This document shows positions 33,023-56,481 of a DNA stretch of 64,000 bases, one piece after another. Positions within the stretch are counted from its first letter, which is position 1, and each line of letters opens with the position of its first letter. The translations under genes were made by a program, and so were the position numbers. This DNA comes from an uncultured Clostridia bacterium (GTDB taxonomy: Bacteria > Bacillota > Clostridia > Christensenellales > CAG-917), in assembly GCA_934254715.1 (NCBI GenBank), contig CAKQLT010000002.1, positions 928 through 64,927 on the forward strand. The letters are read 5' to 3'. The notes beneath the pieces are model-generated. The model worked only from the letters and a program-made list of their open reading frames with translations. It was not told the origin of the DNA and did not search any database.

Positions 33023-33294
33023 AGTATATCGTTGACTTTACCACGCAGTTCAAAAAGGATATAAAACTTGCAAAAAAGCAAGGCAAAGACACAGAGAAGA
33101 TATTTGAAGTGGTCGAAAAACTTGCAAACGACGAAGTTTTGGAAGCAAAATACAAAGACCATTGTTTGACGGGGGATTATAAAGATTGCAGAGAATGTCA
33201 TATCGAGCCGGATTGGCTTTTGATATACAAAAAGTATGAGTCCGAACTGATATTGATGCTTGTCAGAACGGGCAGTCATTCGGATTTGTTTTAA
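33019..33294 (+). CDS. yafQ: Type II toxin, YafQ/RelE-family mRNA interferase
   Basis: The toxin motifs are FKKDIKLAKKQGKD...HCLTGDYKDCRECHIEPDWLLIYK...LVRTGSHSDLF. Confidence 0.9.
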   Translation: MKYIVDFTTQFKKDIKLAKKQGKDTEKIFEVVEKLANDEVLEAKYKDHCLTGDYKDCRECHIEPDWLLIYKKYESELILMLVRTGSHSDLF

Positions 33295-33399
33295 GATACA
33301 AACGTAAAATAAATAGCGTTTCGGGCGAGGTGTTGGAAGACGTCTCGCTTTTTTGTCGAAAATTTTCTGAAAAAATTTGCAAATCGTCCAATAAAACGA

Positions 33400-33428
33400 T
33401 TGCTTGGATTGTATATGTAATATAAAAT
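33400..33428 (+). promoter_or_regulatory. Candidate promoter of the giant gene
   Basis: TTGCTT, a 17-nt spacer, then TAAAAT, about 40 nt upstream of the ATG at 33470. Confidence 0.35.
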
Positions 33429-33469
33429 ATATAAATAATGCGTGTATGCGCACACAGACGGAGAGTAAG

Positions 33470-36400
33470 ATGAGAAGTACAAGGATAGGACAAACCAAAC
33501 TGAAAAAATGTATGAAGTTGACTGCGAGCGGATTGCTGCTTGCGGTGATGTTTGTCCTCGTCTTTGCCGGCACGCTCTCCGGTGCTTTCGGCATTGAAAA
33601 TATTGCAAACGCTGCGGTTTCAAAAAGTTATGGCAGTTCGGATAGTATGGCAACAACGCATACCATTCCTATCAGTGCAAGCAACTGGACACTCGAAGCG
33701 GTTTCTTCTACGCAAAACGCGGCTCGCGTTTACGGTTTGGGCGGCGATTTTACCGATTCGTATTCAAACAACGACAGTTATAACAAAGCGTTCAGAATCC
33801 GCCCCGTTACGTTTGCGGCAAATGAAAATATCGCAGACCCTACCGCAAATAAAGTCGGCGGAAGCACCACGAAGGGCGGAACGAGTTATGGAACTTCGCT
33901 AAAATACGATTCAGTCGGTATCAACGCAATGAGCGGCGATGATAACTGCGGTACGGCTGTTTTCAACTTGTACACGACAATTCAAGTGCCGCAATCTATT
34001 ACGAGTTTCTCTTTCGACGCGCTTATGTGGGCGGGAATGGACGCATACAAGGCGTCTTCTTGGGGAAGCGGAACACCTTCGCATAACACTTCTTTTAATC
34101 TCGCGGTATATGCGGGTGACGGCGTGAGAAGCGGAACGGCTCTTTGCAACACGTCGTCTTATAGTATTTCAAGTTCTAATTCAAGCAAAAACAGCGTTGA
34201 AACAAAAACCGACGGAAGTATTTCCAAATCGGATATTGACATTTCAAACGTTGCTATTTCAAACGGCACAAAATCTATAACCATAGTATTGCAGATGTCG
34301 GCATATAAAGCCGATACCGGCGGTTATTACGATATGTCAACCCATATGCTTCTCGTTTACAATATGAGAATCTCATATAAAGGTCATTATCAAGTGGCGT
34401 TCAACGGAAACGGAAGCACGAAAGGTTCGATGAGCAATCAAGTGCTTACATACGGCGCGGGCGATTCGCTCAACTTGAATCAGTTTGAAAGAGCGGGTTA
34501 CAAATTTACGGGTTGGAACGACCAAATCGACGCAAACGGAAACGGAATCGGCAATAGTTTTGCAGACGGTGCGACCATTACGGAAGATTTTACGAAAACG
34601 CCTTCAACGTCGAGCGCAAACGGTATCGTGGCAAAAACGTTGTATGCGCAGTGGACGCCGTTGTTCGGCTTGATATATCACCAAAACGCCTCGTCGGGCG
34701 ATACTACGACGGTTTATTATAATATCGAGGGCGGCTCGCAGATAACCTTGTATACGGCAGACGACTTTGCCGCAACGGGCGCACTCAGCGGTTTTGCGAA
34801 ATCGGGCTACTATTTTGCGGGGTGGGCGGATTCTGCCGACTCTCAAACGCCGTTGCCGAGCACGATTACGGCGGGCGCAAACGGTCAAACGCGCGATATT
34901 TACGCAATTTGGAAACCCATTGAATACACCATTTATTTCGATAAAAACAATACGAGCGCAAGCGGCACAGTCGATAATATAAGCGGCTACGGCGGAAGCG
35001 CAATCGCAAGTTTGCCCTACGGCTACCATATGCAAGACGGCTTCTTCACGGGGTGGACGTTGAACGCTACCGGAAGCGGCACTTTCTACAAAAAAGGCGA
35101 GGGTATTTCGGCAACCGCTCTCAACGCGCTTTTGACAAACGCGCAAAATAAAAAGATAGACACGGCAAGCGTTTCGTTGAGATTGTACGCGCAATGGGTC
35201 ACTAATATCGAGTTCGGCAAAGACTCGGGACACCTCGACGAAAAGTGGGGTTCGCAAAGCAATCCGTACGTCATTCGCAACGTCACGCAACTCAACAACC
35301 TTGCAAAAATCGTAAACGCAAAATGTTCCGCTTCGGCTAGCGGCGTGGTGGGCAGTATCGTCGGCTCGTCCTACGCTTATGCGACGAATCCGCTTGCAAG
35401 CGCAAACGGCGGATATGCAAATTGCTATTTCAGACTCGACGTAGACATAACGAATATGTCGGGCTTTACGACGCCTATCGGCACGAATACGGCGGTATTT
35501 TCGGGATTTTTCGACGGCAACAATAAAACGTTGAGCGGAATCGACATCGACAAGGCGGGCAGTTACGTCGGCCTTTTCGGCTATACGAGCGGCGCAACCA
35601 TTCAAAACCTCACGATTTCGGGTTCGGTGAAAGGCTCGAAGTACGTCGGCGGCGTTGTGGGTTACGCACTTAATACGACGATTTACAACGTAACCAACAA
35701 TGCGACCGTCACCGCAAGATATTCGGTGGATAACGACGCGGGCGGAAGCATAATTCAATACGACGGCGGCAATCAGACAAACGAAGGTTTCGATAAGGTT
35801 TTTGACGGAACGGACAAGAAGTTCTGCGGCACGCAATCGGGTATGAGTTTCGTTGCGGATTTGGGAAGCAGTTTGGCGATTTCGGGTTTTGCAATCAAAA
35901 ACGCAAACGACACGGCAAGCAATACAAACAGACGTCCCAAAACGATTCAAATTTGGGGTTCGGACGAAAGCACGAATCACGGCAATAAAAACGATAAGGG
36001 AAACGCGGGCGCGTCGCCGACAAGCAAAGGCTATACGAACTGGAATCTCGTATTCTCGCTCGATACGAACAATTTTTCTTCAACGAACTACGAGAGAGTC
36101 GAGTTCGCATTTGACGGAAACAAAACTTACAAATACAGATACTACTGGGTTTATATCATAAGCGCGGGCGGTATCATTCAGTTTTCCGAGTTCGATTTCT
36201 TGGCGGCGGGCGAGGACGTAGGTGGCGTGGTCGGCTACGCTTCGGGTACGAGCGGAAACGGCACGGTCATTTCAAACGTCAAGAACAACGCAAGCGTTAC
36301 GGGCAGTAACTATACGGGCGGTCTCGTCGGCAGAGCGAGCGGCATTTTTGCAATTACCGATTCGTCAAACGCGGGCGGCATTATGGGCTTCGACGGCGTT

Positions 36401-39400
36401 GCGGGCGTACTCGGCGCAATGACGAACAATGCGAACGTCACGATTACGAGTTGCCAAAACAGCGGAACGGTGTCGAGCAGTCCCGAATCCAACGGCGTTG
36501 CTGGTATAATCGGTCGTACGGAATCGGCTTCAAACAGATTGGTCGTTCAAGGCTGTAAAAACACTGCGGTCATAACGGGCGACAGAAACGTCGGCGGCAT
36601 AGGCGGACGTATCGAAACCACGAGAAACGCAAAAGGCTCGTTGGTTTTTGCAAACTGCTACAACGACGGCAGTATCGCCGCAACCGCGTACGGCACGGTG
36701 GGCGGCATTGCCGGTTATTTCTTTGCAAACGGAACGTCGATAGCGGACGTTGCGACGATTTCGTATTGCTTCAGTTCGGGCGCGGTTTCGTCCAACAGCA
36801 CCGCTTCAGACAAGAATATCGGCGGTATCGTAGGCAATCCGAGAGCAAGTACGTTGACTTCCACGCGCGTGTATAACTGCTATACGACTAACACGACTTA
36901 CGCAATTTCGGGCACGGCAAACGCAACTATCGACAACACCAACTACGTCATTGCAAGCGGCGCTTCCGCACCGTCCACGACGAACGGCGGTAAATACTTG
37001 GTGTATAACTCTGCGTTTACTTTCAAACCCGCAATTATCAGCGGAAGTACGTACACGCCGTATAATAGTTGGACTGCGATTGCCGAATACGTCAACGCAA
37101 CCGTAAACGGCGAAGTCGTCAGAGTGTTCAACGACATAAACGGATTTATGGTGTCGGGCAACGTCGCGCCGAGTTCGAGTCAATATTTCCTTTCAAGAAA
37201 GGGCGTGTCGAGTTCGGAATATCTCACGCCGAGCAAGGTTGAAAACGGCAATCCCACGAACGCCGCAGACAGAAGCAATACCGCGACGTTTACCGTTACC
37301 GCGTGGTACGGCGCAAACACAAATAGCAATATTCAGTGCACGATAAGCACAGTTACGATAAACGATTCAAAAAACAATATTTACAACGGTCAACAGCAAG
37401 GCTTTGCAAGAAGCGAGGTGAGCAATCCGAACGCCAACAATAGCGTATACGGCGTCGTGTTCGACTACTTGCTTACTTCGCCGTCCGAGCATTTCGTCAA
37501 GACGTTTGCTTTCGATTCCAACGGCAACCAAATCGAAAGCGGAAGCAATCCGTATCAAGTGGGCGCGTATAACACGACCGTATTCGTAAAAATCGGCGAC
37601 GTTATCGTCGGTAAGAGAGTAAACAGAGTTTTTGAAATCGCGCAAGAAACGATTAACGTCGCGTGGGAATGGACGGATGGCAAGCAATCGACTTTGTTCA
37701 GCCGTATCGGCACGGGCGACGGCGTTCAGTTCGTATACAACAAAGCGGAACAAGGTTTGGGGTCGGTGACGTTCGCTTACAACAAAAACTCGTTCTATAC
37801 GGCGGCGGAATATATGTTTACCGCAAGCGGTAATTTGAAGTATATGAACGCAAGCGGCAACGCGTATTCCCGTACGTACACGCTGAACGACACGAGAAAC
37901 TTTAAGATTCATTCGACGAATACAAATGCGGATTTGTCGGGTACGACGGTTACGTTCGAGTGGATTATCCGCAGAAACAAACTCACAATCGAAAATAGGT
38001 GGGTGAGAGCGGACTTCGGAAAAGACTCGACTATTTATACCTTTGAATACAACGCGGCACATCAAGGTTTGCTCGCGACGGACGGTATCACTTATATCGT
38101 CGAAAACGATACGGCGGGTAAGTCGCACGAGATTTATTCGTGGGTTTTGTATATTGACAATCACGCAAACACCATAAACGTCGGCAAGTATACTCGCAGT
38201 ATTTACGTAAACGACCAGACCAACTACGTGATTGCCTACACAAATTCGTACGTCGGAAACGGCATTGCCAAACTTTCGGGCAACAAGGGCGTGAGCGTAA
38301 ACGATACGCAGTCTTCCGTGACGTATTCGTGGCAGATTCTCGCATACAACATTCTCGACAACTTTAATTCGGATTCGAGCAAGACGAAAGTCTGGTTCGG
38401 CGGTATCGCAGGCGACAACGGGCTTATCGTCGGCAATCAGTTGACTTCCGTCATTTCGGGGGCGACGAGAGACGGCAATAGCGTGAACGTCGCATATTAT
38501 CCGCTTCAATCCGCTTCAAGCGGCGTGCAACAAGTGCTTGTCTACGGTCAGAGCCGATACGACGAGGCAAAGTTTGTCATTTACGTTCAGTACAACGACG
38601 GTACGATTGCGCAACTCTTTGGCAACGAATATACGCTGTCAAACCTCGACGCGCCCACAAAAGAAAACCCAACGCCCATTAACACGAGCGTGACGGCAAG
38701 CGGTCAAGGCAACTTCGCGGGCGACCTCAGCAAATACTATACGGTTTTGTACAGCGATTTCGGCTGGAAGTCGGGCAAGAATCCCAACTCGGCAAACTGG
38801 GGCGCTGCGGACAATCCCTACGTCATCGACAGACCCGAATATCTGCTCAGACTCAGCCAAATCGTAAACGGCAAGGACAAGGCGTGGAACTCTATTGCAA
38901 ACACCTCATACTGCTATGCGCCGCAATCCACCGCAACCGCGCAAAACGCAACTTATAAGGGCGCATACTTCCTCGTCACCGCAAATATCGATATGTCGGA
39001 TTACGTCAGCAAGGACGGATTGACCAACTTCTTGCCCGTGGGCGACGGCTCGGCAAACGGTGAACGCCCGTTCTCGGCTATATTCGACGGCGGTAATAAT
39101 GAGATTAAATATATATATAATATCGGTTATTTCGTAAATAAAGCGAATCCGAGCGGCGAAGAAAAGTACGATTACGTCGGTCTTTTCGGCTATATCGACG
39201 GCGCGACGGTCAAGAACTTGACTGTTACGAGCGAGCGCAGTATTTCCTTCACCGTGGGCGACGTGACGTATAAGGGCGGCGTAAACGGCAGAGATTACGT
39301 CGGCGGCATAGTCGGCAAAGCGGTGGATTCCACCCTCGAAGAAGTCGTATTGAGATACGGCGATTGCGTGTACGGCAACGATTACGTCGGCGGCGTGGTC

Positions 39401-48400: not shown

Positions 48401-51400
48401 TGCGAAAACAAGTGGGATGTAAACGATTCGCTGTACAACGTCACAGAGCCGAGTGAAAAACAAACCTACGAGTTCTCTTGTGCTATCGACTTCCAGAACG
48501 CAAAGGAATACACCATAGAAATTTCGCTTTCGAACGCTTCGACTGCGCTGTACAATCTTACGGGCGATACGACCAAAGGATTCAACGTTAAACCTGCAAC
48601 GTTGACGATAAGCGGCAACGGAACGGATTCCGTTATGTTTGACAACAAAACGCACGGTTACGGTTGGACTATATCGGGACTTGTCAATAAAGCGGGATAT
48701 AGTGACACTATAGCGGTGCTTGCGGCGTTCTCGCCTAAGGCTTGCGCAAAACTCGAAGGCGAAACGAATCCGTATGAAGTCGATTTATATTCCAGTTCCA
48801 CAGCGTTGAAAACAGGAAATATAGCACTCGACTCATTGGCAGGCGTGTCGCTCACAATAAACGGAAATCCGCCTTCAATCGACCTCACGGGTGCAAAGAA
48901 AGCCGGTTCGTATTATCTTACCTTCGCAACGCTTACGGCAGGAAACTATACGCTCAATCTCGAAGGCAGTACGACTGCGAAACAGTCGAAGAAACTTGCA
49001 ATCTCAACCAATTCGCTAACGTTTGAATGGCAAGGTGCAGGTGGAAGCCACACTTACGATAAAGAAACGACTGGCGTTATAACGTTGACGATAAAAGCGG
49101 CAAAAGAAATCAGCGATTTTGCAAACTTTGTGAACAAGTATTTCACAATGTCTATGTCCGGTACGGGTAGCACTGTCAGTGCCGTCACGTCTTCAAACAA
49201 TACGACTGCAACCGTTAAGTTTACGACGGGCGTAAATGCATTGAAGTATTATCAGGCAAAAGTCACGTTGAATAAAAACGAAACCGACTTTATCGAAGAT
49301 AACAAGGGCAGTTGTTCATATCCGTCCGCGCTTTCAAACGGCGGTTCTATAATAAAGAATTACGAGATACTTCGTCGCTCGTTGTCGTTTGAGTTCTCGA
49401 CGAGCAACGGCACGTATAATGCGCAAAATCAAGGCTGGAACGGCGTTAGAACAAAAGCAAAAGCAAACGACGGAACGGGGCTTATAAGCGGTGACAGCGT
49501 AAAAGTCGGTATTGTTATTACGAGAAACGATTCTGCTTTCAAATCTGCGGCGAACATATCCGTGTCTACGTCGTATGTCACAGGCGGCTTGTCAACAATC
49601 GCGTGGGGTAATTATGTCGTAACGGTAACGCTCGATGAAAGCCAAAGCAAAAACTATACGGTTTCAAGCAGCGCGACGACAACGGCTTCGTGGAAAATCA
49701 ATAAGTATTCGTTGTCGCTTAAAGGTCTTGAAGGCGGGAAAAAGACTTATGACGGTACGGCTGTCACGCCAAAACTTTCAATCAACAATCAAGATATAAC
49801 TGACGGCAAGTATAATTATTACGGTGACGCGATTTCAATCACGTATTCAGTGCTCGATGCTGAAAACAAATCGCACGATTCGCTTGTAAACGTAGGTGTA
49901 TATAACATTTCAATAGGTGGAAGCGGAAGCAATGCGATTTCCGTTATTCCCAAACAGCGTGACGGTATCGATACAGCCGACAATTATGCTATAGATTCGT
50001 CGGAAAGCGGATCTACGACTTACACGATAGAACCCAGACAAATCAAACTCACTTGGCAAGAAATCGCGTCCTTCGTGTTCAGCAATGCGGCGCAAGGCTT
50101 GATAGTCACGGGCGTTGAGGGTATCGACGGCAACGGAAGCCTCGCAATCGTAAACGGTTCGAGCACGATAGACGGCGTGAATATCAAGGGATATGCAGGA
50201 AACGACGTCATCGAAATCACCATATCTGGCGCGGCAACTCACGTTGCGGACGGCAAGAAGTTTATGACTGCGGTCATAAGCAAAGTGACGGGAACGAATG
50301 CCGACGGCTCGGATTCCAATTTCAAAAACTACGAAATCGTCGAAGGTATAACGAGCGGCGAGTTCGAGATAACGCCGTCCGTCGTGTCCGTGCGCTTTAC
50401 GGCTACGAACGCAACGCTCGAAAAGGTGTACGACGGCAACAACAGAGTGACGGCACAAATTCTCGACAGTTACTTCACGTTGAGCGCAACGGGACACGTT
50501 CCTACGAAATTCCCGTTCACAATCAGCGGAACGTACGACGACGAAAACGTGCTTTACGATTCGAGCAACAACGTTATAAGAGGCAAAGAGGTCACGTTCT
50601 CGTATACGTTTGCCGACCCGACGAACGTCGGCGACTACGCTTTGGGAAGCGTCGATACGGCGGCGTACAACGTCGGAAAGATTACGCCGAAACACATTCA
50701 AGTTTTCCTCGACAAACTGCGCTCTAACAAGGCGACGAGGACGTACACTGACGATACGACCTACGGCGGCAGCGGCGTAAGCGGCAACGGCACGACGAAA
50801 CCATATCGCGCGGGCGAAGGCTTCAGAGTAAGCGGCGTTTTGACGGGCGACGTAGTGACCGTCTTCGCAAATTACGCCGAATCCGACAACTTGCGCAACA
50901 CCTCTACGAACGGCGGCTTCGACTTTGCAAAATACGTCAACGACGTATACAAAGACTCGGACGGCACGTTCAAGAAAGCAACTTCGGGTTCGTATCTCAA
51001 GAAACTCGTGTTCGAGATGAACGGCGCGGACGCAGGCAACTATACGTTCAACGTATATCATTCGAGCGACGGCGCATACAGCGATACGGACGGCAACTTT
51101 GCGACTAAAGTCACCGTGTACGACAGCAGAGAAAGCGACCAAAACCGCAAGAATAAGAGCGGCTCGCCGCAAATCCAAATCGAAATAACCGTCAAATCCG
51201 TCAAAGTGGAATACTCGAACACCGCTCAAAGTTACGCCAACGACGACAACACCTACAACACCGACTGGGCGCGCGTCGAGGGTACCAACAAGGAAACGGA
51301 CAAGGCGGGCGCGGACATCATCGTCACCAACGGCTGGATGTACGATGACGGCAAAGACCGCCCGATAGATTCCACCGACAAAAAGAGAGAATACCACGGC

Positions 51401-53215
51401 TACACGGTCATTCAGGGTAGGTCGGGCAATTCCCGACTCGGTGCGTCCGTGTCTACGACCAACGGTATGAATCTCAACTATCGTTTGAGCAATCAGCCGA
51501 CTCTTACCATCGCGTACTTCGTGTCCACAGAGAGCAACGAATACAAGATAACTTCGCTTGCGCGTTTGCTCATTGCGTCCTTCTACTACACGGCGCATCA
51601 GAACCCGCAAAACCTCGATATGATCAAGATCGTATCGTCGGGTTACGCGTGGGTCAAGGTCGTTAGCGTGGGCGAGGACGGCGCATACGTCGGCGATTAC
51701 AAGAAGCCCGACAATTCGCCTATCAAGGATTCTACCGCAACCACTTGGGACGAGTATCTTGCAGAATTGCAAGCGGCGGATTACGCGGTGTTCTTCGACA
51801 CCGAAAAGAACGAATGGGGCTACTATAGTTCCAACGAATCCACGCAAAACGACATTCCGTTGAAGTTCGTGCAAACGAAAGACATAACGGGTACGTTCAC
51901 GGCGCAAGACGTCGAAATACTCAACGCGTTCTTCACGACCTCGTCCGTAGACGACAACGGCAACGTTACGCAAAAGCAGTATAACTGGAACGGAACTAAC
52001 AAGGACTTCCTCACGAACGTACTCAAAGCGAGAGTGGGCGCAAACGTGACGATAGACGGCAGTCTGTTCGTATCGACGGCAACGTCGAAAGTGAACGGAA
52101 GCGACGTGTTGACGGGCTTTGACGGCACTTACGACGGCAACGGCTACGTCATCGAATATCTCAATATTATGGGCTACGGCAAAGCAAACGTCGGCTTGTT
52201 CGACGTGATAGGCGAAAGCGGTATCGTAAAGAACGTGCATTTGAGAAACGTCACTATCAACGCAAATCAAGGCAACGTAGGCGCAATCGCCGGTAGCGTT
52301 TACGAATCGAAAACCACCGAAACGAGCGTAAAGAACGTGTCCGTACACGGCGCAATCAACGCAAGCGGCGGCACGGTGGGCGGTCTGTTCGGCACGAGCG
52401 CGAGAGATATTGAAAACGCAATCGTTCTCGGCACGATAACCTCTCAAAACGCAACCGTCGGCGGCGTTGTCGGCACGACGAGCGCAAGCGTAAAGAACGT
52501 CGTTTCCCTTGTGCAAATCACCGCATACGGCGGCACGACAAAAGCGTTTACGACTTCGGGCGCAACGATTGAAGATTCCTATCATATGACTAACGCCGTA
52601 TGGCAAAAGGGAAGCGGATTCGACAACGTTTCGGGCAAGTCCAAGACGTTCAACGAGTTGATGTCGGGTTCTGTTTCGGGTTACGGCACGCAAAACAAGT
52701 ATTACTACACGGGTACGGTCGCGCCGACCAAAGGCGAGTTTGACGTTCTCGACGACGTGCAGATTACCGAACTTTCGGCAATAGGCTCGCAAAACGAAGA
52801 AAACGAAAAGCAGAGTATGCGCCTCAAAGATGTAGTTTCCGTATATCTAATGATGTATTCTTTGTCAAAGACGACGGGAACGCTCACGAGCGACGGCAAG
52901 AGTTTCAACGTAAACGCATACGCGATTAGTTCGTCGAGTTGGCTCGTAGGCACGGCGGACGGCACGCAAAGCAATCCGATTGCAATCGCAAACAAGCAAA
53001 ACGTATCGCTTTTAAGACAACTTCCGTTTGCGACGTTCACGCTCAAGACCAATATCGCGCTCGACATTGCAAGCACGTTTGCAGGCGCGTTCTTCGGAAC
53101 GGTTACGAGCGCGACGGATAGCGCGGGCAATTCGTTCGGATACAAGATAACTTGCGACAAGGATATGTTCGAGGCGTACGCCGAAAGCAATCCGAGTTGG
53201 ATAGAAGTCGCATAA
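33470..53215 (+). CDS. Giant (6,581 aa) secreted GLUG-repeat/beta-helix adhesin-like surface protein
   Basis: This is one uninterrupted ORF. I chose the ATG at 33470, 5 nt after GGAGAG, giving the N-terminus MRSTRIGQTKLKKCMKLTASGLLLAVMFVLVFAGTLSGAFG (a Sec signal). It contains three Listeria-Bacteroides (Flg_new) repeats and dozens of GLUG-type motifs (YVGGVVGYA, NVGGIVG, FVGGSIG). These sit in at least five modules, each opening with a G-x-x-x-NPY-x-I cap. A discoidin-like insert and many Y-x-G/YDG (MBG-like) Ig-type repeats are also present. There is no LPXTG, SLH or C-terminal TM segment. Confidence 0.9.
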   Translation: MRSTRIGQTKLKKCMKLTASGLLLAVMFVLVFAGTLSGAFGIENIANAAVSKSYGSSDSMATTHTIPISASNWTLEAVSSTQNAARVYGLGGDFTDSYSNNDSYNKAFRIRPVTFAANENIADPTANKVGGSTTKGGTSYGTSLKYDSVGINAMSGDDNCGTAVFNLYTTIQVPQSITSFSFDALMWAGMDAYKASSWGSGTPSHNTSFNLAVYAGDGVRSGTALCNTSSYSISSSNSSKNSVETKTDGSISKSDIDISNVAISNGTKSITIVLQMSAYKADTGGYYDMSTHMLLVYNMRISYKGHYQVAFNGNGSTKGSMSNQVLTYGAGDSLNLNQFERAGYKFTGWNDQIDANGNGIGNSFADGATITEDFTKTPSTSSANGIVAKTLYAQWTPLFGLIYHQNASSGDTTTVYYNIEGGSQITLYTADDFAATGALSGFAKSGYYFAGWADSADSQTPLPSTITAGANGQTRDIYAIWKPIEYTIYFDKNNTSASGTVDNISGYGGSAIASLPYGYHMQDGFFTGWTLNATGSGTFYKKGEGISATALNALLTNAQNKKIDTASVSLRLYAQWVTNIEFGKDSGHLDEKWGSQSNPYVIRNVTQLNNLAKIVNAKCSASASGVVGSIVGSSYAYATNPLASANGGYANCYFRLDVDITNMSGFTTPIGTNTAVFSGFFDGNNKTLSGIDIDKAGSYVGLFGYTSGATIQNLTISGSVKGSKYVGGVVGYALNTTIYNVTNNATVTARYSVDNDAGGSIIQYDGGNQTNEGFDKVFDGTDKKFCGTQSGMSFVADLGSSLAISGFAIKNANDTASNTNRRPKTIQIWGSDESTNHGNKNDKGNAGASPTSKGYTNWNLVFSLDTNNFSSTNYERVEFAFDGNKTYKYRYYWVYIISAGGIIQFSEFDFLAAGEDVGGVVGYASGTSGNGTVISNVKNNASVTGSNYTGGLVGRASGIFAITDSSNAGGIMGFDGVAGVLGAMTNNANVTITSCQNSGTVSSSPESNGVAGIIGRTESASNRLVVQGCKNTAVITGDRNVGGIGGRIETTRNAKGSLVFANCYNDGSIAATAYGTVGGIAGYFFANGTSIADVATISYCFSSGAVSSNSTASDKNIGGIVGNPRASTLTSTRVYNCYTTNTTYAISGTANATIDNTNYVIASGASAPSTTNGGKYLVYNSAFTFKPAIISGSTYTPYNSWTAIAEYVNATVNGEVVRVFNDINGFMVSGNVAPSSSQYFLSRKGVSSSEYLTPSKVENGNPTNAADRSNTATFTVTAWYGANTNSNIQCTISTVTINDSKNNIYNGQQQGFARSEVSNPNANNSVYGVVFDYLLTSPSEHFVKTFAFDSNGNQIESGSNPYQVGAYNTTVFVKIGDVIVGKRVNRVFEIAQETINVAWEWTDGKQSTLFSRIGTGDGVQFVYNKAEQGLGSVTFAYNKNSFYTAAEYMFTASGNLKYMNASGNAYSRTYTLNDTRNFKIHSTNTNADLSGTTVTFEWIIRRNKLTIENRWVRADFGKDSTIYTFEYNAAHQGLLATDGITYIVENDTAGKSHEIYSWVLYIDNHANTINVGKYTRSIYVNDQTNYVIAYTNSYVGNGIAKLSGNKGVSVNDTQSSVTYSWQILAYNILDNFNSDSSKTKVWFGGIAGDNGLIVGNQLTSVISGATRDGNSVNVAYYPLQSASSGVQQVLVYGQSRYDEAKFVIYVQYNDGTIAQLFGNEYTLSNLDAPTKENPTPINTSVTASGQGNFAGDLSKYYTVLYSDFGWKSGKNPNSANWGAADNPYVIDRPEYLLRLSQIVNGKDKAWNSIANTSYCYAPQSTATAQNATYKGAYFLVTANIDMSDYVSKDGLTNFLPVGDGSANGERPFSAIFDGGNNEIKYIYNIGYFVNKANPSGEEKYDYVGLFGYIDGATVKNLTVTSERSISFTVGDVTYKGGVNGRDYVGGIVGKAVDSTLEEVVLRYGDCVYGNDYVGGVVGFAQNTTIANSEKIFNASVSGRFYVGGVAGEWQVYDKSQLGLNNQQSLTPIDSSSVSGAKYVGGLVGWLDLSNCSGSVTFTPQYDNGTSKTLEVKGTEYVGALFGTLVGNGYRQTANSTGLTSIVIESSKVGNVTLKPVTYSDGNSTYLPKVVGGLVGFIESAALVFGTSWNTDNITFDFNKTSTSFLGGVVGVMSKNSTIEMFVLIKNDGSQLTSVDGKITANTQFGHAGSPSSSNYNAGSFVGGIVGYVSSQAGSFWREGTTIFGNAVQFENTANVYATGFAGGIFGALGNIALSKIEQSVGAVYDEISVAQNQDNRTNILQKILVGGVREGLSVTTLGIAPTTDSDYVSGANGKLRNTASVQVTKSNGVGGEYVGGIVGYSGANVRLVLRNKPQTGDIDVSALNVYSGGANVAIAGSYAGGIAGFTDNLEHELQYIVVQAKFTDSNATRVGGLIGEMTSGAINGCVVVSAMAAGERISFDTDNFQGTEYVGGLVGKTENATIKDSIATGFNLQSTSITKGGVLGGGTNPTIEASWTFYIANEGATYSTISANEYGKYILVDKDTITSNGSSYPSFEKLCAFAGIANTLQNGVVGILEFALNVPSATYNANWGGAQLAFYDASGSDKITTNFGATENNSVGAIKDFVNVNNVVTVKLDMETGTSMQVCIVPIEFVNVKKWTTSNDLYASTNSRKWQLNIENSYKQPSSSSRYVVYVTNNNEGTLSSNKERLYDDDGNVRYIQASVFYNWQDKDGNEFYVLIGNGDNSNFVGSYDKELTPGSKGNPFTISNQKEWNDFAHSVYSGTSYSGQYVKLLTDEIVIDNSAHYGTASSTKKLDFGTAVTSTPANGTAAGSNIGYNFAGDISKDSNEHNFQGVFDGNGHYITVNYNSGGYHRVSVFPNAANAEFRNLTIKGSIMAASQMTGADGIANSAAYDIAAFVAKPFGSLEFYNCTNEADIIGLRNVAGIVGYNSGGHGIKLEACVNTGNITSLQGMYTVSGGFKDTYKYNDNLADTGVGVNNISFTFGTGGIIGSYVGTITIESCRNAGEIIGGNNVGGIIGRHEGSSSSTATLTINNCANTGNVLSNSGYWGEDEGGVEGANSEGVRQHVFGYAGGLVGITGQHSILRMYASYNTGDVTTYSNIVGGLVGGVGALYQPSGKNTVKTGGRSIIAYCYNTGTIKAGGTFPKTTQAYGGGRENFGGTVSGGFVGIAGDIQISQGYNAGDVWNYGHISYQFSWQVRAGGIVGQSEPVTESGHTGYVLFDNLYNVGTIFVRPIDYEIIFGYTVKNNLRYGAAISGYCDVSDKSDRIKASDCYSINNCISSRCAVLNGKEYSYYKNGQNSWNPEFRDQWYQNSGVGGIGETKVNLLETGRVYNTYDSLTAAMDENSKLRMTGSNFAFDQSTTALTLNYGSVGNYTSIKEQIIGADASISDNAVSNLSTIGWKKFPDSWLYVYGCLPQLSMFALDTQNGLSMRSVGYGKDDYGVYNDEGVAAGSEQYPYIIKDGVDLMGMQALVDAGLSFEGKYIEIANGSNNLEGIASTRIELATYDGTNTAAVNDDSNTMYKAVDQNGDYKVGKSYHLLLQGAIFNKAYNQGQNPTYVGTDYAYWAWNTYYYNGETLSNVWESGSPNPNKWDSYGSMRHYGVFSLQNFIPMGRGNSVFKGNFSGKQANGEMTYIDNVRISTGKYNNSSNVTCGSEYGGLFSKVENAYIGYIAIGGNSKILSFAKENDISATGGIVGLSLGSSVIDNCGVSDSATIGAYGVSKTNQYVENESIANNKKYAKDTYAGGIVGLADTKHGNSYSAGITAIIRNCNVSTTGNIESAKDYIGGILGYVEGSSNAEGKGNSVRIENCNVQNAVIQAADSATTSSYIGGVFGFGSQYVSAFVTGCSVGVGGKVTIKGEHSLGGIAGGMSNAQGGYIDSCTVGGGTSITRIDQGGDKQVVESANHGTAIGGLVGFTQNSTDTVSPLTTTFSGTSSFAGTITVGVAATNQSADSDAAISCIGGIVGDMGSGANFASGSDVTVRGTISIPLAAANVGGVAGRTNTATFIGKFDVSPNMSTANTENVGGFIGKNIGTVYILADNTDKLVDGNLKGTQISIGGTIVGTNEVGGFIGVNNSQSTLNIGSNVANAKPYRSGTLNITISATVTGSGENVGGIVGKNEGASSLGATDYATVDIVKGVILQKGDIEGQKYVGGIIGLNQGLLTTGGGEADTAIGGATLSNAQINSIKNLSITNEGNVKGGALNGTAYENGDYVGGVIGLLDSPDTLKVTDEGKGAIAGTFTNGGKVEGGRFVGGSIGFVGKNVTITAKDTDTLFVNSGEVTAHGYFAGGSIGALVGTIEGVSTEYMVNFENEGNVNATGFVGGSIGVLAGPVKFAQFVNKSNGLTMEAVNAVGGSVGYIGLSSTLKTVLDTLGITLESDYVQIVNTHFEAKGNLTVNANQTAIDEAKGNASDSSTGWGGVGGAIGVIGASVAKWGSSDKERNTYYANGNVVASGINNVGGIVGLVNANDITISNMLAYGTTVKGGANVGGIVGATTGAGTVIKSAYAVEGTFEGSEMVGGIIGRTKSDTDAKSSYWVKGYPNATLAGTDVGKLQTDLGKFETIVEYVGSQPVVFTEEFCTMYTPKTYYDDYTGTHKYDGKTITAVTDANMTWEQYFASSLGIANAEKKNGAWVKPIAGAKSYTTGASDTGWYFVYATDTTIGTISAEHSVNANESYWKRIADAYTASEREAGDDTKALTASEIVLGDNGQPQKSTLYATATSAGENSGYYLYMATSGNSRPSATYSDGLFFIKTLTANEDALAENVAVYYRTISRGKSLTYNGYARFAPVGITASEGDEVPFVENPTTGTPDTYCYSSDTSADSTKTDPNEAGKPYKSKVKIYYFDSEGTPHVVGGVEIDWEIKKRDLEASFSDSGERVYGVDRAESSDGTAKHDVTLKISNIAPNKGSDLSLIITIRDKDNNATTFTLSKNSMTPEAINGISIVGAGITNLCENKWDVNDSLYNVTEPSEKQTYEFSCAIDFQNAKEYTIEISLSNASTALYNLTGDTTKGFNVKPATLTISGNGTDSVMFDNKTHGYGWTISGLVNKAGYSDTIAVLAAFSPKACAKLEGETNPYEVDLYSSSTALKTGNIALDSLAGVSLTINGNPPSIDLTGAKKAGSYYLTFATLTAGNYTLNLEGSTTAKQSKKLAISTNSLTFEWQGAGGSHTYDKETTGVITLTIKAAKEISDFANFVNKYFTMSMSGTGSTVSAVTSSNNTTATVKFTTGVNALKYYQAKVTLNKNETDFIEDNKGSCSYPSALSNGGSIIKNYEILRRSLSFEFSTSNGTYNAQNQGWNGVRTKAKANDGTGLISGDSVKVGIVITRNDSAFKSAANISVSTSYVTGGLSTIAWGNYVVTVTLDESQSKNYTVSSSATTTASWKINKYSLSLKGLEGGKKTYDGTAVTPKLSINNQDITDGKYNYYGDAISITYSVLDAENKSHDSLVNVGVYNISIGGSGSNAISVIPKQRDGIDTADNYAIDSSESGSTTYTIEPRQIKLTWQEIASFVFSNAAQGLIVTGVEGIDGNGSLAIVNGSSTIDGVNIKGYAGNDVIEITISGAATHVADGKKFMTAVISKVTGTNADGSDSNFKNYEIVEGITSGEFEITPSVVSVRFTATNATLEKVYDGNNRVTAQILDSYFTLSATGHVPTKFPFTISGTYDDENVLYDSSNNVIRGKEVTFSYTFADPTNVGDYALGSVDTAAYNVGKITPKHIQVFLDKLRSNKATRTYTDDTTYGGSGVSGNGTTKPYRAGEGFRVSGVLTGDVVTVFANYAESDNLRNTSTNGGFDFAKYVNDVYKDSDGTFKKATSGSYLKKLVFEMNGADAGNYTFNVYHSSDGAYSDTDGNFATKVTVYDSRESDQNRKNKSGSPQIQIEITVKSVKVEYSNTAQSYANDDNTYNTDWARVEGTNKETDKAGADIIVTNGWMYDDGKDRPIDSTDKKREYHGYTVIQGRSGNSRLGASVSTTNGMNLNYRLSNQPTLTIAYFVSTESNEYKITSLARLLIASFYYTAHQNPQNLDMIKIVSSGYAWVKVVSVGEDGAYVGDYKKPDNSPIKDSTATTWDEYLAELQAADYAVFFDTEKNEWGYYSSNESTQNDIPLKFVQTKDITGTFTAQDVEILNAFFTTSSVDDNGNVTQKQYNWNGTNKDFLTNVLKARVGANVTIDGSLFVSTATSKVNGSDVLTGFDGTYDGNGYVIEYLNIMGYGKANVGLFDVIGESGIVKNVHLRNVTINANQGNVGAIAGSVYESKTTETSVKNVSVHGAINASGGTVGGLFGTSARDIENAIVLGTITSQNATVGGVVGTTSASVKNVVSLVQITAYGGTTKAFTTSGATIEDSYHMTNAVWQKGSGFDNVSGKSKTFNELMSGSVSGYGTQNKYYYTGTVAPTKGEFDVLDDVQITELSAIGSQNEENEKQSMRLKDVVSVYLMMYSLSKTTGTLTSDGKSFNVNAYAISSSSWLVGTADGTQSNPIAIANKQNVSLLRQLPFATFTLKTNIALDIASTFAGAFFGTVTSATDSAGNSFGYKITCDKDMFEAYAESNPSWIEVA
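34388..35197 (+). other. Three Listeria-Bacteroides (Flg_new) repeats within the giant protein
   Basis: The repeats read YQVAFNGNGSTKGSM...AGYKFTGWND...LYAQW, then IYHQNASSGD...SGYYFAGWAD...IYAIW, then YTIYFDKNNTSASG...DGFFTGWTL...LYAQW. Confidence 0.7.
35750..36199 (+). other. Discoidin/F5-8 type C-like (CBM32-like) domain inserted in the first GLUG module
   Basis: The segment reads IIQYDGGNQTNEGFDKVFDGTDKKFCG...FAIKNAND...RPKTIQIWGS...YRYYWVYII...IIQFSEFDF. Confidence 0.5.
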
Positions 53216-56092: not shown

Positions 56093-56121
56093 TTGACACA
56101 ATCGCAAACTCTTGCTATACT
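56093..56121 (+). promoter_or_regulatory. Sigma-A promoter upstream of the tRNA pair
   Basis: TTGACA (56093-56098), a 17-nt spacer, then TATACT (56116-56121), about 155 nt upstream of tRNA-Ser. Confidence 0.55.
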
Positions 56122-56448: not shown

Positions 56449-56450
56449 AA

Positions 56451-56481
56451 TCCGTGAACGAAATTCGTTCACGGATTTTTT
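56451..56481 (+). terminator. Intrinsic terminator after the tRNA pair
   Basis: TCCGTGAACGAAATTCGTTCACGGA is followed by TTTTTT. Confidence 0.8.

What the first reader, a model, noticed from the sequence alone, without database searches (positions are those of the whole stretch)
33470..53215. A 19.7-kb single ORF encoding an anchorless 6,581-aa multi-module GLUG beta-helix protein
One uninterrupted reading frame takes up 31% of the window. By eye the architecture is as follows:
- A Sec signal peptide.
- A ~260-aa N-terminal region I cannot assign.
- Three Listeria-Bacteroides repeats.
- At least five beta-helix modules. Each opens with a cap such as GSQSNPYVIRNVTQLNNLAKIVN, GAADNPYVIDRPEYLLRLSQIVN, SKGNPFTISNQKEWNDFAHSV, SEQYPYIIKDGVDLMGMQALV or TQSNPIAIANKQNVSLLRQL. 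Each is then filled with GLUG-type G-G-(I/L/V)-(V/I)-G rungs and C-x-N-x-G turns.
- A discoidin-like insert.
- Two blocks of Y-x-G / YDG (MBG-like) Ig-type repeats.
The C-terminus (…KITCDKDMFEAYAESNPSWIEVA) has no LPXTG, SLH, choline-binding or TM anchor. I saw no HExxH protease motif. How such a protein is exported and retained is therefore unexplained.
Basis: partly seen in the sequence, partly recalled or inferred. Interest (0 to 1): 0.65.

Follow-up and report, generated by a model that had tools for sequence, protein, structure and literature searches.

The report
Giant beta-helix surface protein with partner genes
This is a real, conserved 6,581-residue exported protein of uncultured human-gut Clostridia, built from beta-helix, sugar-binding-like and Ig-like modules, and it always sits directly upstream of three small membrane-anchored proteins that probably hold it on the cell, which makes it a new variant of the familiar giant-adhesin theme rather than a new kind of system.

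Summary
The ORF is real: window 33470-53215 (+) encodes 6,581 aa with no internal stop. It is not an assembly artefact.
- It contains no long DNA repeats.
- The identical protein is recorded on two contigs.
- Nine related genomes keep the frame open and stop at the same codon.
- Twelve relatives from different 50%-identity clusters are 5,775-6,936 aa long.
- dN/dS is 0.17-0.26.

It has an N-terminal hydrophobic leader, three Flg_new repeats, five GLUG-type beta-helix modules, a galactose-binding-like insert and MBG/Ig-like spacers. However, GLUG and F5/8-C score below Pfam's cut-offs, and only one MBG repeat passes.

No LPXTG, SLH, choline-binding, C-terminal TM or HExxH element exists in this protein or its relatives.

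Three things are new.
- The leader is almost invariant, at the DNA level too, while the next ~450 aa cannot be aligned between relatives.
- The last ~200 aa form a family-specific domain that always lies at the C-terminus.
- Three small genes, each with an N-terminal TM segment (one also with a BspA-type LRR), follow the giant gene in 53 of 53 informative metagenome loci, down to about 30% identity.

Internal cassettes have been exchanged between strains.

Best reading: a Sec-exported surface fibre retained non-covalently by these partner proteins and/or by its own leader.

The parts
33373..33469 (+). Conserved 5' region (promoter-like AT-rich stretch and GGAGAG ribosome-binding site) in front of the giant gene. 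A terminator-like hairpin of the upstream RelE gene lies at 33323-33350.
   Evidence: This region aligns with the orthologous locus L018. Terminator scan. No canonical sigma-70 site was called on the + strand.
33470..53215 (+). Giant ORF of 6,581 aa plus stop codon.
33470..33613 (+). Leader, aa 1-48. It has a basic n-region, a 24-26-aa hydrophobic segment (LTASGLLLAVMFVLVFAGTLSGAFGI), then ENIANA|A, a possible AxA cleavage site.
   Evidence: Hydropathy. The segment is nearly invariant in 9 full-length cluster representatives and 4 N-terminal fragments. 79 of 82 nt are identical to L018, although copA is only 78% identical.
33614..34375 (+). N-terminal variable domain, aa 49-302. It has no family assignment.
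   Evidence: No Pfam or NCBIfam hit. It cannot be aligned to any full-length relative. It is replaced by other sequence in P0099, P0105, P0115 and P0127.
34376..35245 (+). Three Listeria-Bacteroides (Flg_new / InlB B-repeat) repeats, aa ~303-592.
   Evidence: Pfam PF09479 at 40.4 bits against a cut-off of 27. TIGR02543 at 22.1 against 20.95. Hundreds of InlB-B-repeat proteins were hit.
35240..36889 (+). Beta-helix module 1, aa 591-1140 (cap, entry and GLUG-type rungs).
   Evidence: Homologues annotated PF07581. Consensus. AF2 beta-helix with pLDDT above 90. Cap profile.
35747..36199 (+). Galactose-binding-like (discoidin / CBM32-like) insert inside module 1, aa 760-910.
   Evidence: Foldseek matches 3nng (F5/8 type C), CBM62, CBM32 and the EndoS CBM at probability 1.0, TM(target) 0.5-0.64. 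DUF5000 at 20.5 bits and F5_F8_type_C_2 at 18.8 bits are both below their cut-offs. Model confidence in the insert is only 44-71.
36890..38794 (+). Spacer block 1, aa 1141-1775, with Y-N-x-x-x-Q-G motifs. It is presumed Ig-like but not assigned.
   Evidence: No Pfam hit even at E<=10. Motifs are read by eye only.
38795..41029 (+). Beta-helix module 2, aa 1776-2520.
   Evidence: Cap/entry profile at 74 bits. 12 GG-x-x-G motifs.
41744..43219 (+). Beta-helix module 3, aa 2759-3250.
   Evidence: Cap/entry profile at 32 bits. C-x-N-x-G turns.
43886..47149 (+). Beta-helix module 4, aa 3473-4560. This is the longest module, with 17 GG-x-x-G motifs.
   Evidence: Cap profile at 14.8 bits for aa 3473-3524. 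Motif counts.
41267..44869 (+). Variable cassette A, aa ~2600-3800.
   Evidence: Identity to L010 is 16-63% here, mostly 32-48%. L010 is 89-99% identical in the flanking blocks. L002 is 46-98% identical over the same stretch.
47807..51424 (+). Ig-like / MBG-YDG spacer block 2, aa ~4780-5985.
   Evidence: MBG PF17883 at 23.9 bits against 23.3 for aa 5422-5522. AF2 predicts beta-sandwiches with pLDDT 70-89 for aa 5382-5637. Homologues carry PF18657 YDG.
48167..49969 (+). Variable cassette B, aa ~4900-5500. Local GC drops to 0.46.
   Evidence: There is no blastn match to L001 between 48018 and 50021. Identity is 24-47% to L002, L004, L005, L007 and L010, but 69-87% to L003. GC profile.
51524..52669 (+). 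Beta-helix module 5, aa ~6019-6400. It has a divergent cap, an insertion, the entry motif FDGTYDGNGYVIEYLNI, and a few rungs.
   Evidence: Entry profile at 27 bits for aa 6183-6298. AF2 pLDDT is 58-86 for aa ~6231-6371.
52607..53212 (+). Family-specific C-terminal domain, aa 6380-6581. It ends ...GYKITCDKDMFEAYAESNPSWIEVA.
   Evidence: Only 34 hits among 1.84 billion representatives, and all lie at the extreme C-terminus of the hit. No Pfam or NCBIfam hit. The same end is seen in all orthologues.
53477..54559 (+). d1, 360 aa. It has an N-terminal TM segment followed by the invariant motif SFAWF.
   Evidence: It follows the giant gene in every related locus. There is a weak match (E 0.03) to the N-terminal helix of the archaeal flagellin-type filament subunit 8fk7.
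54559..55362 (+). d2, 267 aa. It has an N-terminal TM segment followed by AAWF and is a distant paralogue of d1.
55359..56042 (+). d3, 227 aa. It has an N-terminal TM segment and a BspA-type leucine-rich repeat.
   Evidence: Pfam LRR_5 at 31.9 bits against 27.7. Conserved position.

Best explanation
**What it is.** The ORF encodes a genuine, conserved extracellular fibre-like protein of about 700 kDa from uncultured human-gut Clostridia. The closest genome is labelled Christensenella sp. UBA6880.

**Export.** It is exported by the Sec pathway through its N-terminal leader.

**Mature protein.** The mature part is a chain of five right-handed beta-helix (GLUG-type) modules. They are spaced by Flg_new and MBG/Ig-like beta-sandwich arrays. 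A galactose-binding-like domain is inserted in the first helix. This is the make-up of a glycan- or surface-binding adhesin rather than an enzyme.

**Retention.** The protein is not wall-anchored covalently. I propose it is kept at the cell surface non-covalently. Its highly conserved C-terminal region (the last ~1,000 aa, ending in a family-specific ~200-aa domain) would dock onto the three small N-terminally membrane-anchored proteins d1, d2 and d3. These are encoded directly downstream, and d3 carries a BspA-type LRR, a protein-binding fold. The protein's own unusually long and invariant leader may also help as a membrane anchor.

**Variation.** The N-terminal domain and two internal cassettes are exchanged between strains. 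This is as expected for the exposed, ligand-binding or antigenic parts.

**Shown here:** the reality and conservation of the ORF, the module types, the absence of known anchors, the conservation of the leader, the C-terminal domain, the four-gene cassette, and the mosaicism.

**Inferred:** Sec export, surface location, docking on d1-d3, and adhesive function.
For: **ORF and conservation:**

**Modules**
- Flg_new scores above its cut-off.
- 579 homologues of module 1 were found, most annotated PF07581, and they share the cap and rung consensus.
- AF2 predicts a beta-helix, and Foldseek matches the insert to F5/8-C and CBM32.
- One MBG repeat scores above its cut-off.

**No anchor**
- Pfam and NCBIfam scans of the whole protein find no LPXTG, SLH, CW_binding, CWB2, LysM or M26 domain.
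- There is no LPXTG and no convincing second TM segment in any of 13 family members. One member has a single, probably chance, HExxH. A few have one borderline internal hydrophobic window.

**Leader**
- It is near-invariant across clusters that share no more than 50% identity, while aa 50-500 cannot be aligned.
- 79 of 82 nt are identical between genomes whose copA and csoR genes are 78-81% identical.

**C-terminal region**
- The C-terminal block is the most evenly conserved part of the protein.
- Its last 200 aa occur only in this family and only at the C-terminus.

**Partner genes**
- d1-d3 each have one N-terminal TM segment.
- They are present in the same order after the giant gene in all 10 genome loci.
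- They are present in a distant relative with a different leader, only 19 nt downstream.
- A metagenome scan was seeded on d1 alone. In 53 of 53 loci with enough upstream sequence, the giant C-terminal domain lies directly upstream, down to 28-33% identity.
- No terminator-like site was found between the giant gene and d1.

**Mosaic cassettes:**
Against: - There is no experimental evidence of localisation and no interaction evidence.
- d1 and d2 have no recognisable family, so their role is open.
- The AF2 model of the C-terminal 1,200 aa is poor (pLDDT 47). Foldseek found nothing for it.
- The window protein has a canonical AxA site (ANA|A) six residues after the hydrophobic segment, so the leader may simply be cleaved.
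- A 262-nt gap separates the giant gene from d1, so co-transcription is not shown.
- Conserved gene order within one bacterial lineage can persist without physical interaction.
- A shorter distant relative of 3,185 aa (L020) lacks d1 and d2 downstream.
Confidence: 0.45

Rival explanations
1. The protein is retained only by its own N-terminus. In this reading the leader is an uncleaved signal-anchor (type II topology). The whole 6,500-aa chain hangs from the membrane, and d1-d3 serve another role such as export, folding or regulation.
For: - The hydrophobic segment is 24-26 aa long, which is TM length. It is preceded by five basic residues.
- It is far more conserved than any ordinary signal peptide. 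Most relatives also carry a conserved polar stretch after it (x-L-Q-Q-N-G-I-I-E-N-N-V-A-S-A-A). That stretch puts the AxA motif about 17 residues from the membrane, too far for a typical signal-peptidase site.
- It is the only hydrophobic segment in every family member.
Against: - The window protein itself lacks the polar stretch and has a well-placed ANA|A site.
- Two distant family members (P0266 and P0268) have a different leader but keep d1-d3.
- No signal-peptide predictor was available.
- The DNA-level identity of the leader could reflect recombination rather than selection on the peptide.
Confidence: 0.2
2. The protein is a released exoprotein. The leader is cleaved and the protein is shed. 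It could be a biofilm-matrix or mucus-binding component, or it could decorate a filament built from d1/d2.
For: - No anchor of any known kind was found.
- A canonical AxA site is present.
- A preprint describes other giant Clostridia proteins without TM anchors as predicted extracellular (10.1101/2023.11.21.568195).
- d1 has a weak pilin/archaellin-like N-terminus. A TasA-like motif was seen by eye only.
Against: - The strict linkage to three proteins with membrane-spanning N-termini and the constrained C-terminal domain suggest a cell-bound complex.
- The NCBIfam SipW-signal model and the Pfam pilin models did not hit d1-d3.
Confidence: 0.25
3. The protein is an enzyme rather than an adhesin. 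The beta-helix modules would be polysaccharide lyases or depolymerases, or the protein would be a Zmp/IgA-protease relative.
For: - The beta-helix part of module 1 has weak Foldseek matches to the Klebsiella K1 capsule lyase, phage depolymerases and GH110.
- GLUG motifs co-occur with Peptidase_M26_N in some homologues.
Against: - Those matches have probability 0.14-0.44 and rmsd 13-19 Å.
- There is no HExxH, no Peptidase_M26_N or _C, and no glycoside-hydrolase or lyase family hit.
- No PDB sequence match was found.
Confidence: 0.08
4. The ORF is an artefact: a chimeric or collapsed assembly, or a decaying pseudogene.
For: Related assemblies show the gene split in two.
Against: - The split in L001 is an N10 scaffold gap.
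- The window ORF has no repeats that could mislead an assembler.
- The same protein was assembled independently.
- Size and architecture are conserved over 13 clusters.
- dN/dS is 0.17-0.26.
Confidence: 0.02

Closest known systems
GLUG-motif proteins (Pfam PF07581), including the N-terminal regions of streptococcal M26 zinc metalloproteases (IgA1 protease / Zmp family; the streptococcal link is from my own knowledge of the Pfam entry)
   Same: The cap NPY-x-I...L..L...VN, the entry F-x-G-x-F-D-G-x-G..I-S-G-L, and the repeated N-C-x-N-x-G-x-V-x-G...V-G-G-x-x-G rungs are the consensus of the PF07581-annotated homologues. They fold as a right-handed beta-helix in the model.
   Different: - The protein has five such modules.
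- It has no protease domain or HExxH.
- It lacks the SLH, dockerin or LPXTG partners seen in other GLUG proteins.
- Pfam's own model scores below its cut-off here.
Giant Gram-positive wall-anchored adhesins, e.g. the 7,651-aa Mobiluncus mulieris Ig-repeat adhesin (PMC10619420) and Embp (PMC9302970)
   Same: All are very large, have an N-terminal signal, contain long arrays of Ig-like or beta-sandwich spacers, are presumed to have an adhesive role, and are the largest protein of their genome.
   Different: - Most of those proteins are near-identical tandem repeats, and the Mobiluncus adhesin, like many others, ends in an LPXTG sortase signal.
- This protein has highly divergent modules and no DNA repeats.
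- It has beta-helix modules and no C-terminal sorting signal.
Giant proteins of gut Clostridia noted by West-Roberts et al. (bioRxiv 10.1101/2023.11.21.568195)
   Same: They come from mammalian-gut Clostridia, contain Listeria-Bacteroides repeats and leucine-rich-repeat neighbours, and lack TM anchors. That paper also notes small class-III-signal (pilin-like) genes near giant genes in Omnitrophota.
   Different: - Those proteins are 10,000-30,000 aa or RCC1-based.
- GLUG is not mentioned in that paper (0 occurrences).
- No conserved partner triad is described there.
T1SS giant adhesins of Gram-negative bacteria (SiiE, PMC6272769; LapA-type RTX adhesins, PMC7493085)
   Same: The logic is similar: a very long extender made of beta-sandwich repeats presents terminal ligand-binding domains. 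In LapA-type adhesins, retention is non-covalent and is achieved through one end of the protein together with dedicated partner proteins encoded nearby.
   Different: - The secretion route differs: a C-terminal T1SS signal there, an N-terminal Sec-type leader here.
- The envelope differs.
- There are no RTX or BIg repeats here.
- This is an analogy only, with no homology.
TasA/TapA/SipW fibres and type IV pilin/archaellin-like subunits (as a comparison for d1-d3 only)
   Same: They are small proteins with an N-terminal hydrophobic segment followed by a conserved aromatic motif (S-F-A-W-F-S-N; TasA has W-A-A-F-N-D, quoted from memory). The d1 profile weakly matches the N-terminal helix of the 8fk7 archaeal filament subunit (E 0.03; PMC10334743).
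   Different: - No SipW-signal, camelysin, N_methyl or Pilin_N model hits d1-d3.
- No signal peptidase or prepilin peptidase gene is adjacent.
- The resemblance is a lead, not a membership.

Membership tests
GLUG motif (PF07581) | Pfam HMM score at or above the gathering cut-off (20.5 bits) | tested here: not met
   19.9 and 19.2 bits on 900-aa pieces, and 16.6 bits on aa 1-5000.
GLUG motif (PF07581) | Homology to proteins that carry PF07581, with a shared cap, entry and rung consensus | tested here: met
   579 hits for aa 580-1250, most of those listed annotated PF07581. Consensus. A profile built from them scores 74, 32 and 27 bits on modules 2, 3 and 5.
Right-handed parallel beta-helix fold | Predicted stacked beta-rungs with confident geometry, and similarity to solved beta-helices | tested here: inconclusive
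   AF2 pLDDT is above 90 in the rung regions, with short regular strands. Foldseek matches to solved beta-helices have probability of only 0.14-0.44.
Listeria-Bacteroides repeat (Flg_new PF09479 / TIGR02543) | HMM score above the cut-off | tested here: met
   40.4 bits against 27, with 2 stretches. 22.1 against 20.95.
F5/8 type C / galactose-binding-like domain | Pfam score above the cut-off | tested here: not met
   DUF5000 at 20.5 against 25, and F5_F8_type_C_2 at 18.8 against 27.8.
F5/8 type C / galactose-binding-like domain | Jelly-roll fold matching solved members | tested here: met
   Foldseek matches 3nng, 2yfu, 2w1u, 2j22 and the EndoS CBM at probability 1.0 and TM(target) 0.45-0.64. 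Caveat: pLDDT in the insert is 44-71.
MBG / YDG Ig-like repeats (PF17883, PF18676, PF18887, PF18657) | HMM score above the cut-off | tested here: inconclusive
   One repeat passes (PF17883 at 23.9 against 23.3, aa 5422-5522). MBG_2 scores 11.1 and MBG_3 scores 8.1, which is noise. PF18657 is on record for orthologues P0004-P0006.
Sortase-anchored (LPXTG) surface proteins | C-terminal LPXTG, followed by a hydrophobic segment and a basic tail | tested here: not met
   No LPxT[GAN] motif anywhere, and no C-terminal hydrophobic segment, in this protein or 12 relatives.
Non-covalent wall binding (SLH, CW_binding_1/2, LysM, GW, SH3b) | Any such Pfam or NCBIfam domain | tested here: not met
   None was found in scans of the whole protein.
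M26 IgA1-protease / Zmp family | HExxH zinc site and Peptidase_M26_N/C domains | tested here: not met
   No HExxH. No PF05342 or PF07580 hit.
T7SS substrates (WXG100 / LXG) | N-terminal WXG or LXG helical domain and no Sec leader | tested here: not met
   The N-terminus is a basic-plus-hydrophobic Sec-type leader. No such family was hit.
SipW-dependent (TasA-type) signal, for d1-d3 | NCBIfam SipW-cognate signal model or a camelysin/TasA family hit | tested here: not met
   No hit at E<=1 in NCBIfam or at E<=10 in Pfam. The resemblance is by eye only.
Sec signal peptide (cleavable) | n-h-c regions with AxA at -3/-1, as judged by a trained predictor | not testable with these tools
   The n-region and h-region are present, and ANA|A lies at aa 46-48|49. 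No SignalP or DeepTMHMM was available. The h-region is unusually long at 24-26 aa.

The most novel reading that the evidence does not exclude
The giant gene and d1-d3 together would encode a previously undescribed surface-display apparatus of gut Clostridia. A ~700-kDa beta-helix/Ig fibre would be docked by a dedicated C-terminal domain onto a small pilin-like or LRR membrane complex. A nucleotide-conserved leader would serve both as an export/anchor signal and as a recombination anchor. Strains would vary the fibre by swapping whole modules. In some lineages a homopolymer tract inside the gene (T9 in L018/L019) would switch it on and off.
Probability: 0.18. Interest if true: 0.65.

Novelty: new variant of a known kind. 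Interest (0 to 1): 0.45.

Why it matters
**Who carries it.** The carriers are common but uncultured human-gut Clostridia. Their labels include Christensenella sp. UBA6880, CAG:238, CAG:475 and several UMGS bins, and most of the metagenome contigs are from human gut.

**Why the protein deserves attention.** Their largest protein is likely to be a main point of contact with mucus, diet glycans, other microbes, phages or host IgA. Strains that are otherwise near-identical carry different cassettes in it, which fits such a role.

**What the finding provides**
- It defines a family almost invisible to domain databases, since Pfam covers under 5% of its length.
- It shows that the giant size itself is conserved (5.8-6.9 kaa).
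- It turns the question of how an anchorless giant protein is held on a Gram-positive cell into a testable hypothesis, with three named partner genes and two defined termini.

**What it does not do.** It does not overturn anything. Giant adhesin-like proteins without recognised anchors are frequent in metagenome-assembled genomes.

Tried and rejected
- **Homologue searches with large queries.** A 5,000-aa query timed out.
- **PDB sequence searches.** Both halves of the protein gave nothing.
- **C-terminal structure.** AF2 of the C-terminal 1,200 aa gave pLDDT 47, and its Foldseek search gave no significant match. The fold of the C-terminal domain therefore remains unknown.
- **A truncated sixth module at the end?** I suspected that the last 85 aa are a cap without rungs. 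A cap profile aligns them in the expected register but scores only 3 bits. This is kept as a weak remark only.
- **Leader shared by paralogues?** I first took the proteins sharing the leader (P0099, P0105, P0115, P0127) for paralogues carrying a common sorting signal. P0115 lies at the same copA/csoR-flanked locus. These are therefore allelic or orthologous variants, and no other kind of protein with this leader was seen among the proteins listed (best 120 of 353).
- **d1-d3 as TasA/SipW-type or pilin-type proteins.** No HMM supports this. The only hit is a weak one to 8fk7.
- **The split in L001.** The apparent frameshift turned out to be a scaffold gap.
- **Gut-1 RNA in L018.** The repeats in L018 that match window 28650-28787 are not Gut-1 RNA by Rfam.
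- **Literature.** Searches for GLUG found only passing mentions. Nothing was found on this family.


Full report
**1. The observation**

The window holds one reading frame open from 33404 to the TAA at 53213-53215. The best start is the ATG at 33470, directly preceded by GGAGAG. This gives 6,581 aa with no internal stop and covers 30.9% of the window. An ATG eight codons upstream (33446) explains a 6,589-aa database record of the same protein.

The protein is rich in G, S, T and N. It has a single hydrophobic segment (aa 13-43), no LPXTG and no HExxH.

**2. It is not an artefact**
- Inside the ORF there are no tandem repeats. The only direct repeats are 33-58-nt matches at 60-85% identity that encode the Y-V-G-G-I-V-G rung motif.
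- At the protein level the internal repeats are so divergent that BLASTP finds none, and phmmer finds only weak ones. A repeat-driven collapse or chimera is therefore implausible.
- The exact 6,581-aa sequence is on record from two contigs, and the 6,589-aa form from another.
- Nine species-level genomes carry an orthologue that is 55-96% identical over the last 960 aa. They are Christensenella sp. UBA6880, uncultured Clostridiales UMGS1331 and UMGS1042, Firmicutes bacterium CAG:238 and CAG:475, Clostridia bacterium HGM11462, and three bins with doubtful names. Their frame is open through all the upstream DNA fetched (at least 4,270 aa in seven of them; two are cut by the contig end). All end at the same ...YKITC[DN]K.MFEAY... 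terminus.
- A search of 1.84 billion cluster representatives found twelve further full-length relatives of 5,775-6,936 aa. They have the same layout.
- dN/dS over the last 960 aa is 0.17-0.26.
- Splits seen in other assemblies are an N10 scaffold gap in L001 and a frameshift at a T9 tract in L018/L019.
- SpoIIE in the window and the names of the related records place the organism among spore-forming gut Clostridia.

**3. Architecture**

The layout along the protein is as follows.

| Region (aa) | Feature | Evidence |
|---|---|---|
| 1-48 | Basic n-region, 24-26-aa hydrophobic segment, then ENIANA\|A | |
| 49-302 | No family hit | |
| ~303-592 | Three Flg_new / InlB-B repeats (40.4 bits vs 27; TIGR02543 22.1 vs 20.95) | |
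| 591-1140 | Beta-helix module 1 | |
| 760-910 | Galactose-binding-like insert inside module 1 | |
| 1141-1775 | Spacer block 1, unassigned | |
| 1776-2520 | Beta-helix module 2 (74 bits) | |
| 2759-3250 | Beta-helix module 3 (32 bits) | |
| 3473-4560 | Beta-helix module 4 (15 bits for the cap) | |
| ~4780-5985 | MBG / Ig-like spacer block 2 | |
| ~6019-6400 | Beta-helix module 5 (27 bits for the entry) | |
| 6380-6581 | Family-specific C-terminal domain | |

Module 1 (queried as aa 580-1250) has 579 homologues from many phyla. Most are annotated PF07581 (GLUG), and they have varied partners such as SLH, dockerin, Peptidase_M26_N and Flg_new_2.

AF2 with this alignment gives pTM 0.72 and pLDDT above 90 in the rung regions. 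The insert at aa 760-910 matches F5/8 type C, CBM32, CBM62 and the EndoS CBM at Foldseek probability 1.0. Its Pfam scores are below the cut-offs, with DUF5000 at 20.5 and F5_F8_type_C_2 at 18.8.

The module starts in the table come from a cap/entry profile built from the homologues. Pfam's own Glug model stays just below its cut-off, at 19.9 bits on pieces and 16.6 bits on 5,000 aa against 20.5.

Between the modules lie spacer blocks.
- One MBG repeat passes Pfam (23.9 against 23.3, aa 5422-5522).
- AF2 gives beta-sandwiches with pLDDT 70-89 for aa 5382-5637.
- Orthologues carry PF18657 YDG.
- Spacer block 1 (aa 1141-1775) has no support beyond motifs read by eye.

**4. No known anchor, protease or secretion signal**

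Pfam and NCBIfam scans of the whole protein were run in overlapping pieces, as 5,000-aa and 2,081-aa pieces, and as short pieces at E<=10. None shows an SLH, CW_binding, CWB2, LysM, GW, sortase-signal, M26, LXG or WXG domain.

The same holds for the family. Each of its 13 members has an N-terminal hydrophobic segment and no LPXTG. A few have one borderline internal hydrophobic window, and one has a single, probably chance, HExxH.

**5. The leader is unusual**

I compared nine full-length cluster representatives, each from a different 50%-identity cluster, and four N-terminal fragments. In all of them the stretch ASGLLLA[VL][ML]FVLVFAGTLSGAFG[IV]E is almost invariant. In contrast, the following ~450 aa cannot be aligned at all between the window protein and any full-length relative.

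Most relatives continue with x-L-Q-Q-N-G-I-I-E-N-N-V-A-S-A-A. The window protein lacks these eleven residues, which places ANA|A six residues after the hydrophobic segment.

At the DNA level, 79 of 82 leader nucleotides are identical between the window and locus L018. The neighbouring copA and csoR genes are only 78% and 81% identical between the same two sequences.

The proteins sharing the leader are allelic or orthologous variants at the same copA/csoR-flanked locus, not paralogues. The leader is therefore either under unusual selection, as a membrane anchor or a specialised signal, or it is a recombination anchor for swapping the adjacent variable domain. It could be both.

**6. A family-specific C-terminal domain and three constant partner genes**

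The last 202 aa find only 34 proteins among 1.84 billion. In every one, the match lies at the extreme C-terminus. The last ~1,000 aa are the most evenly conserved part of the protein.

Directly downstream lie d1 (53477-54559), d2 (54559-55362) and d3 (55359-56042).
- Each has a single N-terminal hydrophobic segment. It is followed by a conserved aromatic motif: S-F-A-W-F in d1, A-A-W-F in d2 and Y-A-V-W-I in d3.
- d3 also has a BspA-type LRR.

Their linkage to the giant gene is very consistent.
- They follow the giant gene in all ten genome loci.
- They follow it in a distant relative that has a different leader, where d1 starts only 19 nt after the giant stop.
- A metagenome scan seeded only on d1 returned 60 loci. 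In 53 of the 53 loci with at least 900 nt upstream, the giant C-terminal domain lies directly upstream on the same strand. d2 and d3 follow wherever the contig reaches that far. This holds down to 28-33% identity.
- No terminator-like site separates the giant gene from d1, whereas a strong one follows the tRNAs at 56448-56478.

d1 and d2 match no Pfam, NCBIfam or PDB sequence family. The only hit is a weak match (E 0.03) of the d1 profile to the N-terminal helix of the archaeal filament subunit 8fk7.

**7. Mosaicism**

Identity along the protein is block-wise and differs by genome.

| Region (aa) | L010 | L002 | L003 |
|---|---|---|---|
| 2201-2500 | 89-96% | 85-93% (from aa 2301) | - |
| ~2600-3800 (cassette A) | 16-63%, mostly 32-48% | 46-98% | - |
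| 3801-4800 | 89-98% | 89-100% | 75-95% (from aa 4001) |
| 4900-5500 (cassette B) | 27-41% | 28-41% | 69-87% |
| 5601-6581 | 84-99% | 85-98% | 80-96% |

L002 is 92-100% identical from aa 3401 to 4900.

The second cassette coincides with a local drop in GC to 0.46 and with the only part of the gene that has no blastn match in L001. One strain variant (P0099) replaces the first ~650 aa and rejoins module 1. Whole modules have therefore been exchanged between lineages, as expected for exposed, selected surfaces.

**8. Mechanism**

Shown:
- a conserved ~700-kDa protein with a Sec-type N-terminus;
- beta-helix, CBM-like and Ig-like modules;
- no known anchor;
- constrained termini;
- an invariant four-gene cassette;
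- module swapping.

Inferred: the protein is exported by Sec and displayed as a long fibre whose variable parts bind ligands, probably glycans.

I commit to non-covalent retention at the membrane by the d1-d3 proteins through the conserved C-terminal region, possibly assisted by the leader. My confidence in this is about 0.45.

The rivals are:
- retention by an uncleaved leader alone (0.2);
- release as a soluble or matrix protein (0.25);
- an enzymatic role of the beta-helices (0.08), because the Foldseek matches to lyases and depolymerases have low probability;
- an artefact (0.02).

**9. Comparison with what is known, and novelty**

It works like the giant adhesins of Gram-positive bacteria (for example PMC10619420 and PMC9302970). 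In its retention logic it resembles LapA-type T1SS adhesins (PMC7493085). It is not a member of either group.

It belongs to the broad GLUG-motif superfamily by homology, although not by Pfam's cut-off.

A preprint on giant genes mentions gut Clostridia giants with Listeria-Bacteroides repeats and no TM anchors, and pilin-like small genes near the giant genes of Omnitrophota. It does not mention GLUG or this family. My literature searches found nothing on this family.

I therefore rate it a new variant of a known kind. It is of moderate interest, mainly for the strictly conserved partner triad, the nucleotide-conserved leader and the module swapping.

**10. Limits**
- No signal-peptide predictor was available.
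- There are no expression or localisation data.
- The C-terminal model is poor.
- 5' ends are available for only a few relatives.
- Gene order within one lineage is suggestive evidence of interaction, not proof.

Noticed in passing
window 28543-28624, 28801-28878, 28909-28988 (+): Three copies of the Gut-1 RNA motif (Rfam RF01706, 62-66 bits against a cut-off of 50) lie between the PHP-domain gene and the 3' end of the copper ATPase gene. The spacer between copies 1 and 2 (28650-28787) is itself repeated 3-4 times between copA and csoR in the related locus L018. Rfam calls no Gut-1 there.
   Followed up: partly
window 32750-33022 and 33019-33294 (+): A RelB/DinJ antitoxin and a RelE/YafQ toxin pair (TIGR02384 at 73.8 bits, TIGR02385 at 101 bits) are inserted between csoR and the giant gene. 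They are absent from the orthologous locus L018.
   Followed up: partly
L018 ~6795-6805 and L019 ~2697-2707: In a distant orthologue, the giant gene is broken into 828 + 5,991 aa by a frameshift at a T9 homopolymer. The same break is seen in two independent assemblies. It could be slipped-strand phase variation or a shared sequencing error. The window ORF has only one A7 tract, at 41437-41443.
   Followed up: partly
window 33521-33602 versus L018: The nucleotides encoding the leader are about 96% identical (79 of 82) between two genomes whose flanking copA and csoR genes are 78-81% identical. About 60 nt of AT-rich upstream sequence and the ribosome-binding site are also conserved.
   Followed up: partly
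window 53477-56042 (+): The three small genes d1, d2 and d3 belong to no described family, apart from an LRR_5 hit in d3. Their N-terminal hydrophobic segments end in a conserved [SA]-[FA]-A-W-F motif. By eye this recalls TasA/SipW-type signals. By a weak profile hit it recalls archaeal pilin/archaellin N-termini.
   Followed up: partly
window 1030-11857 (+): An L-rhamnose utilisation cluster is present. It contains an MFS_2 sugar transporter, a GH78 alpha-L-rhamnosidase, a FGGY kinase, RhaA isomerase, a class II aldolase and an Fe-alcohol dehydrogenase (lactaldehyde reductase-like).
   Followed up: no
window 56277-56365 and 56373-56448 (+): tRNA-Ser(TGA) and tRNA-Thr(GGT) lie directly after d3. 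They have their own strong promoter-like site (56093-56121) and a terminator (56448-56478).
   Followed up: no
L011-L017: Weak partial matches (28-34% identity) of the beta-helix entry and MBG/YDG parts occur in Proteobacteria (Dyella, Ideonella, Luteimonas, Rhodanobacter, Rhizobacter). This shows that the module types are widespread outside Firmicutes.
   Followed up: no
L020 5738-15295: A shorter relative of 3,185 aa has the same C-terminal domain in a different genomic context. It is followed by a 1,438-aa Flg_new/LRR_5 protein instead of d1-d3.
   Followed up: no
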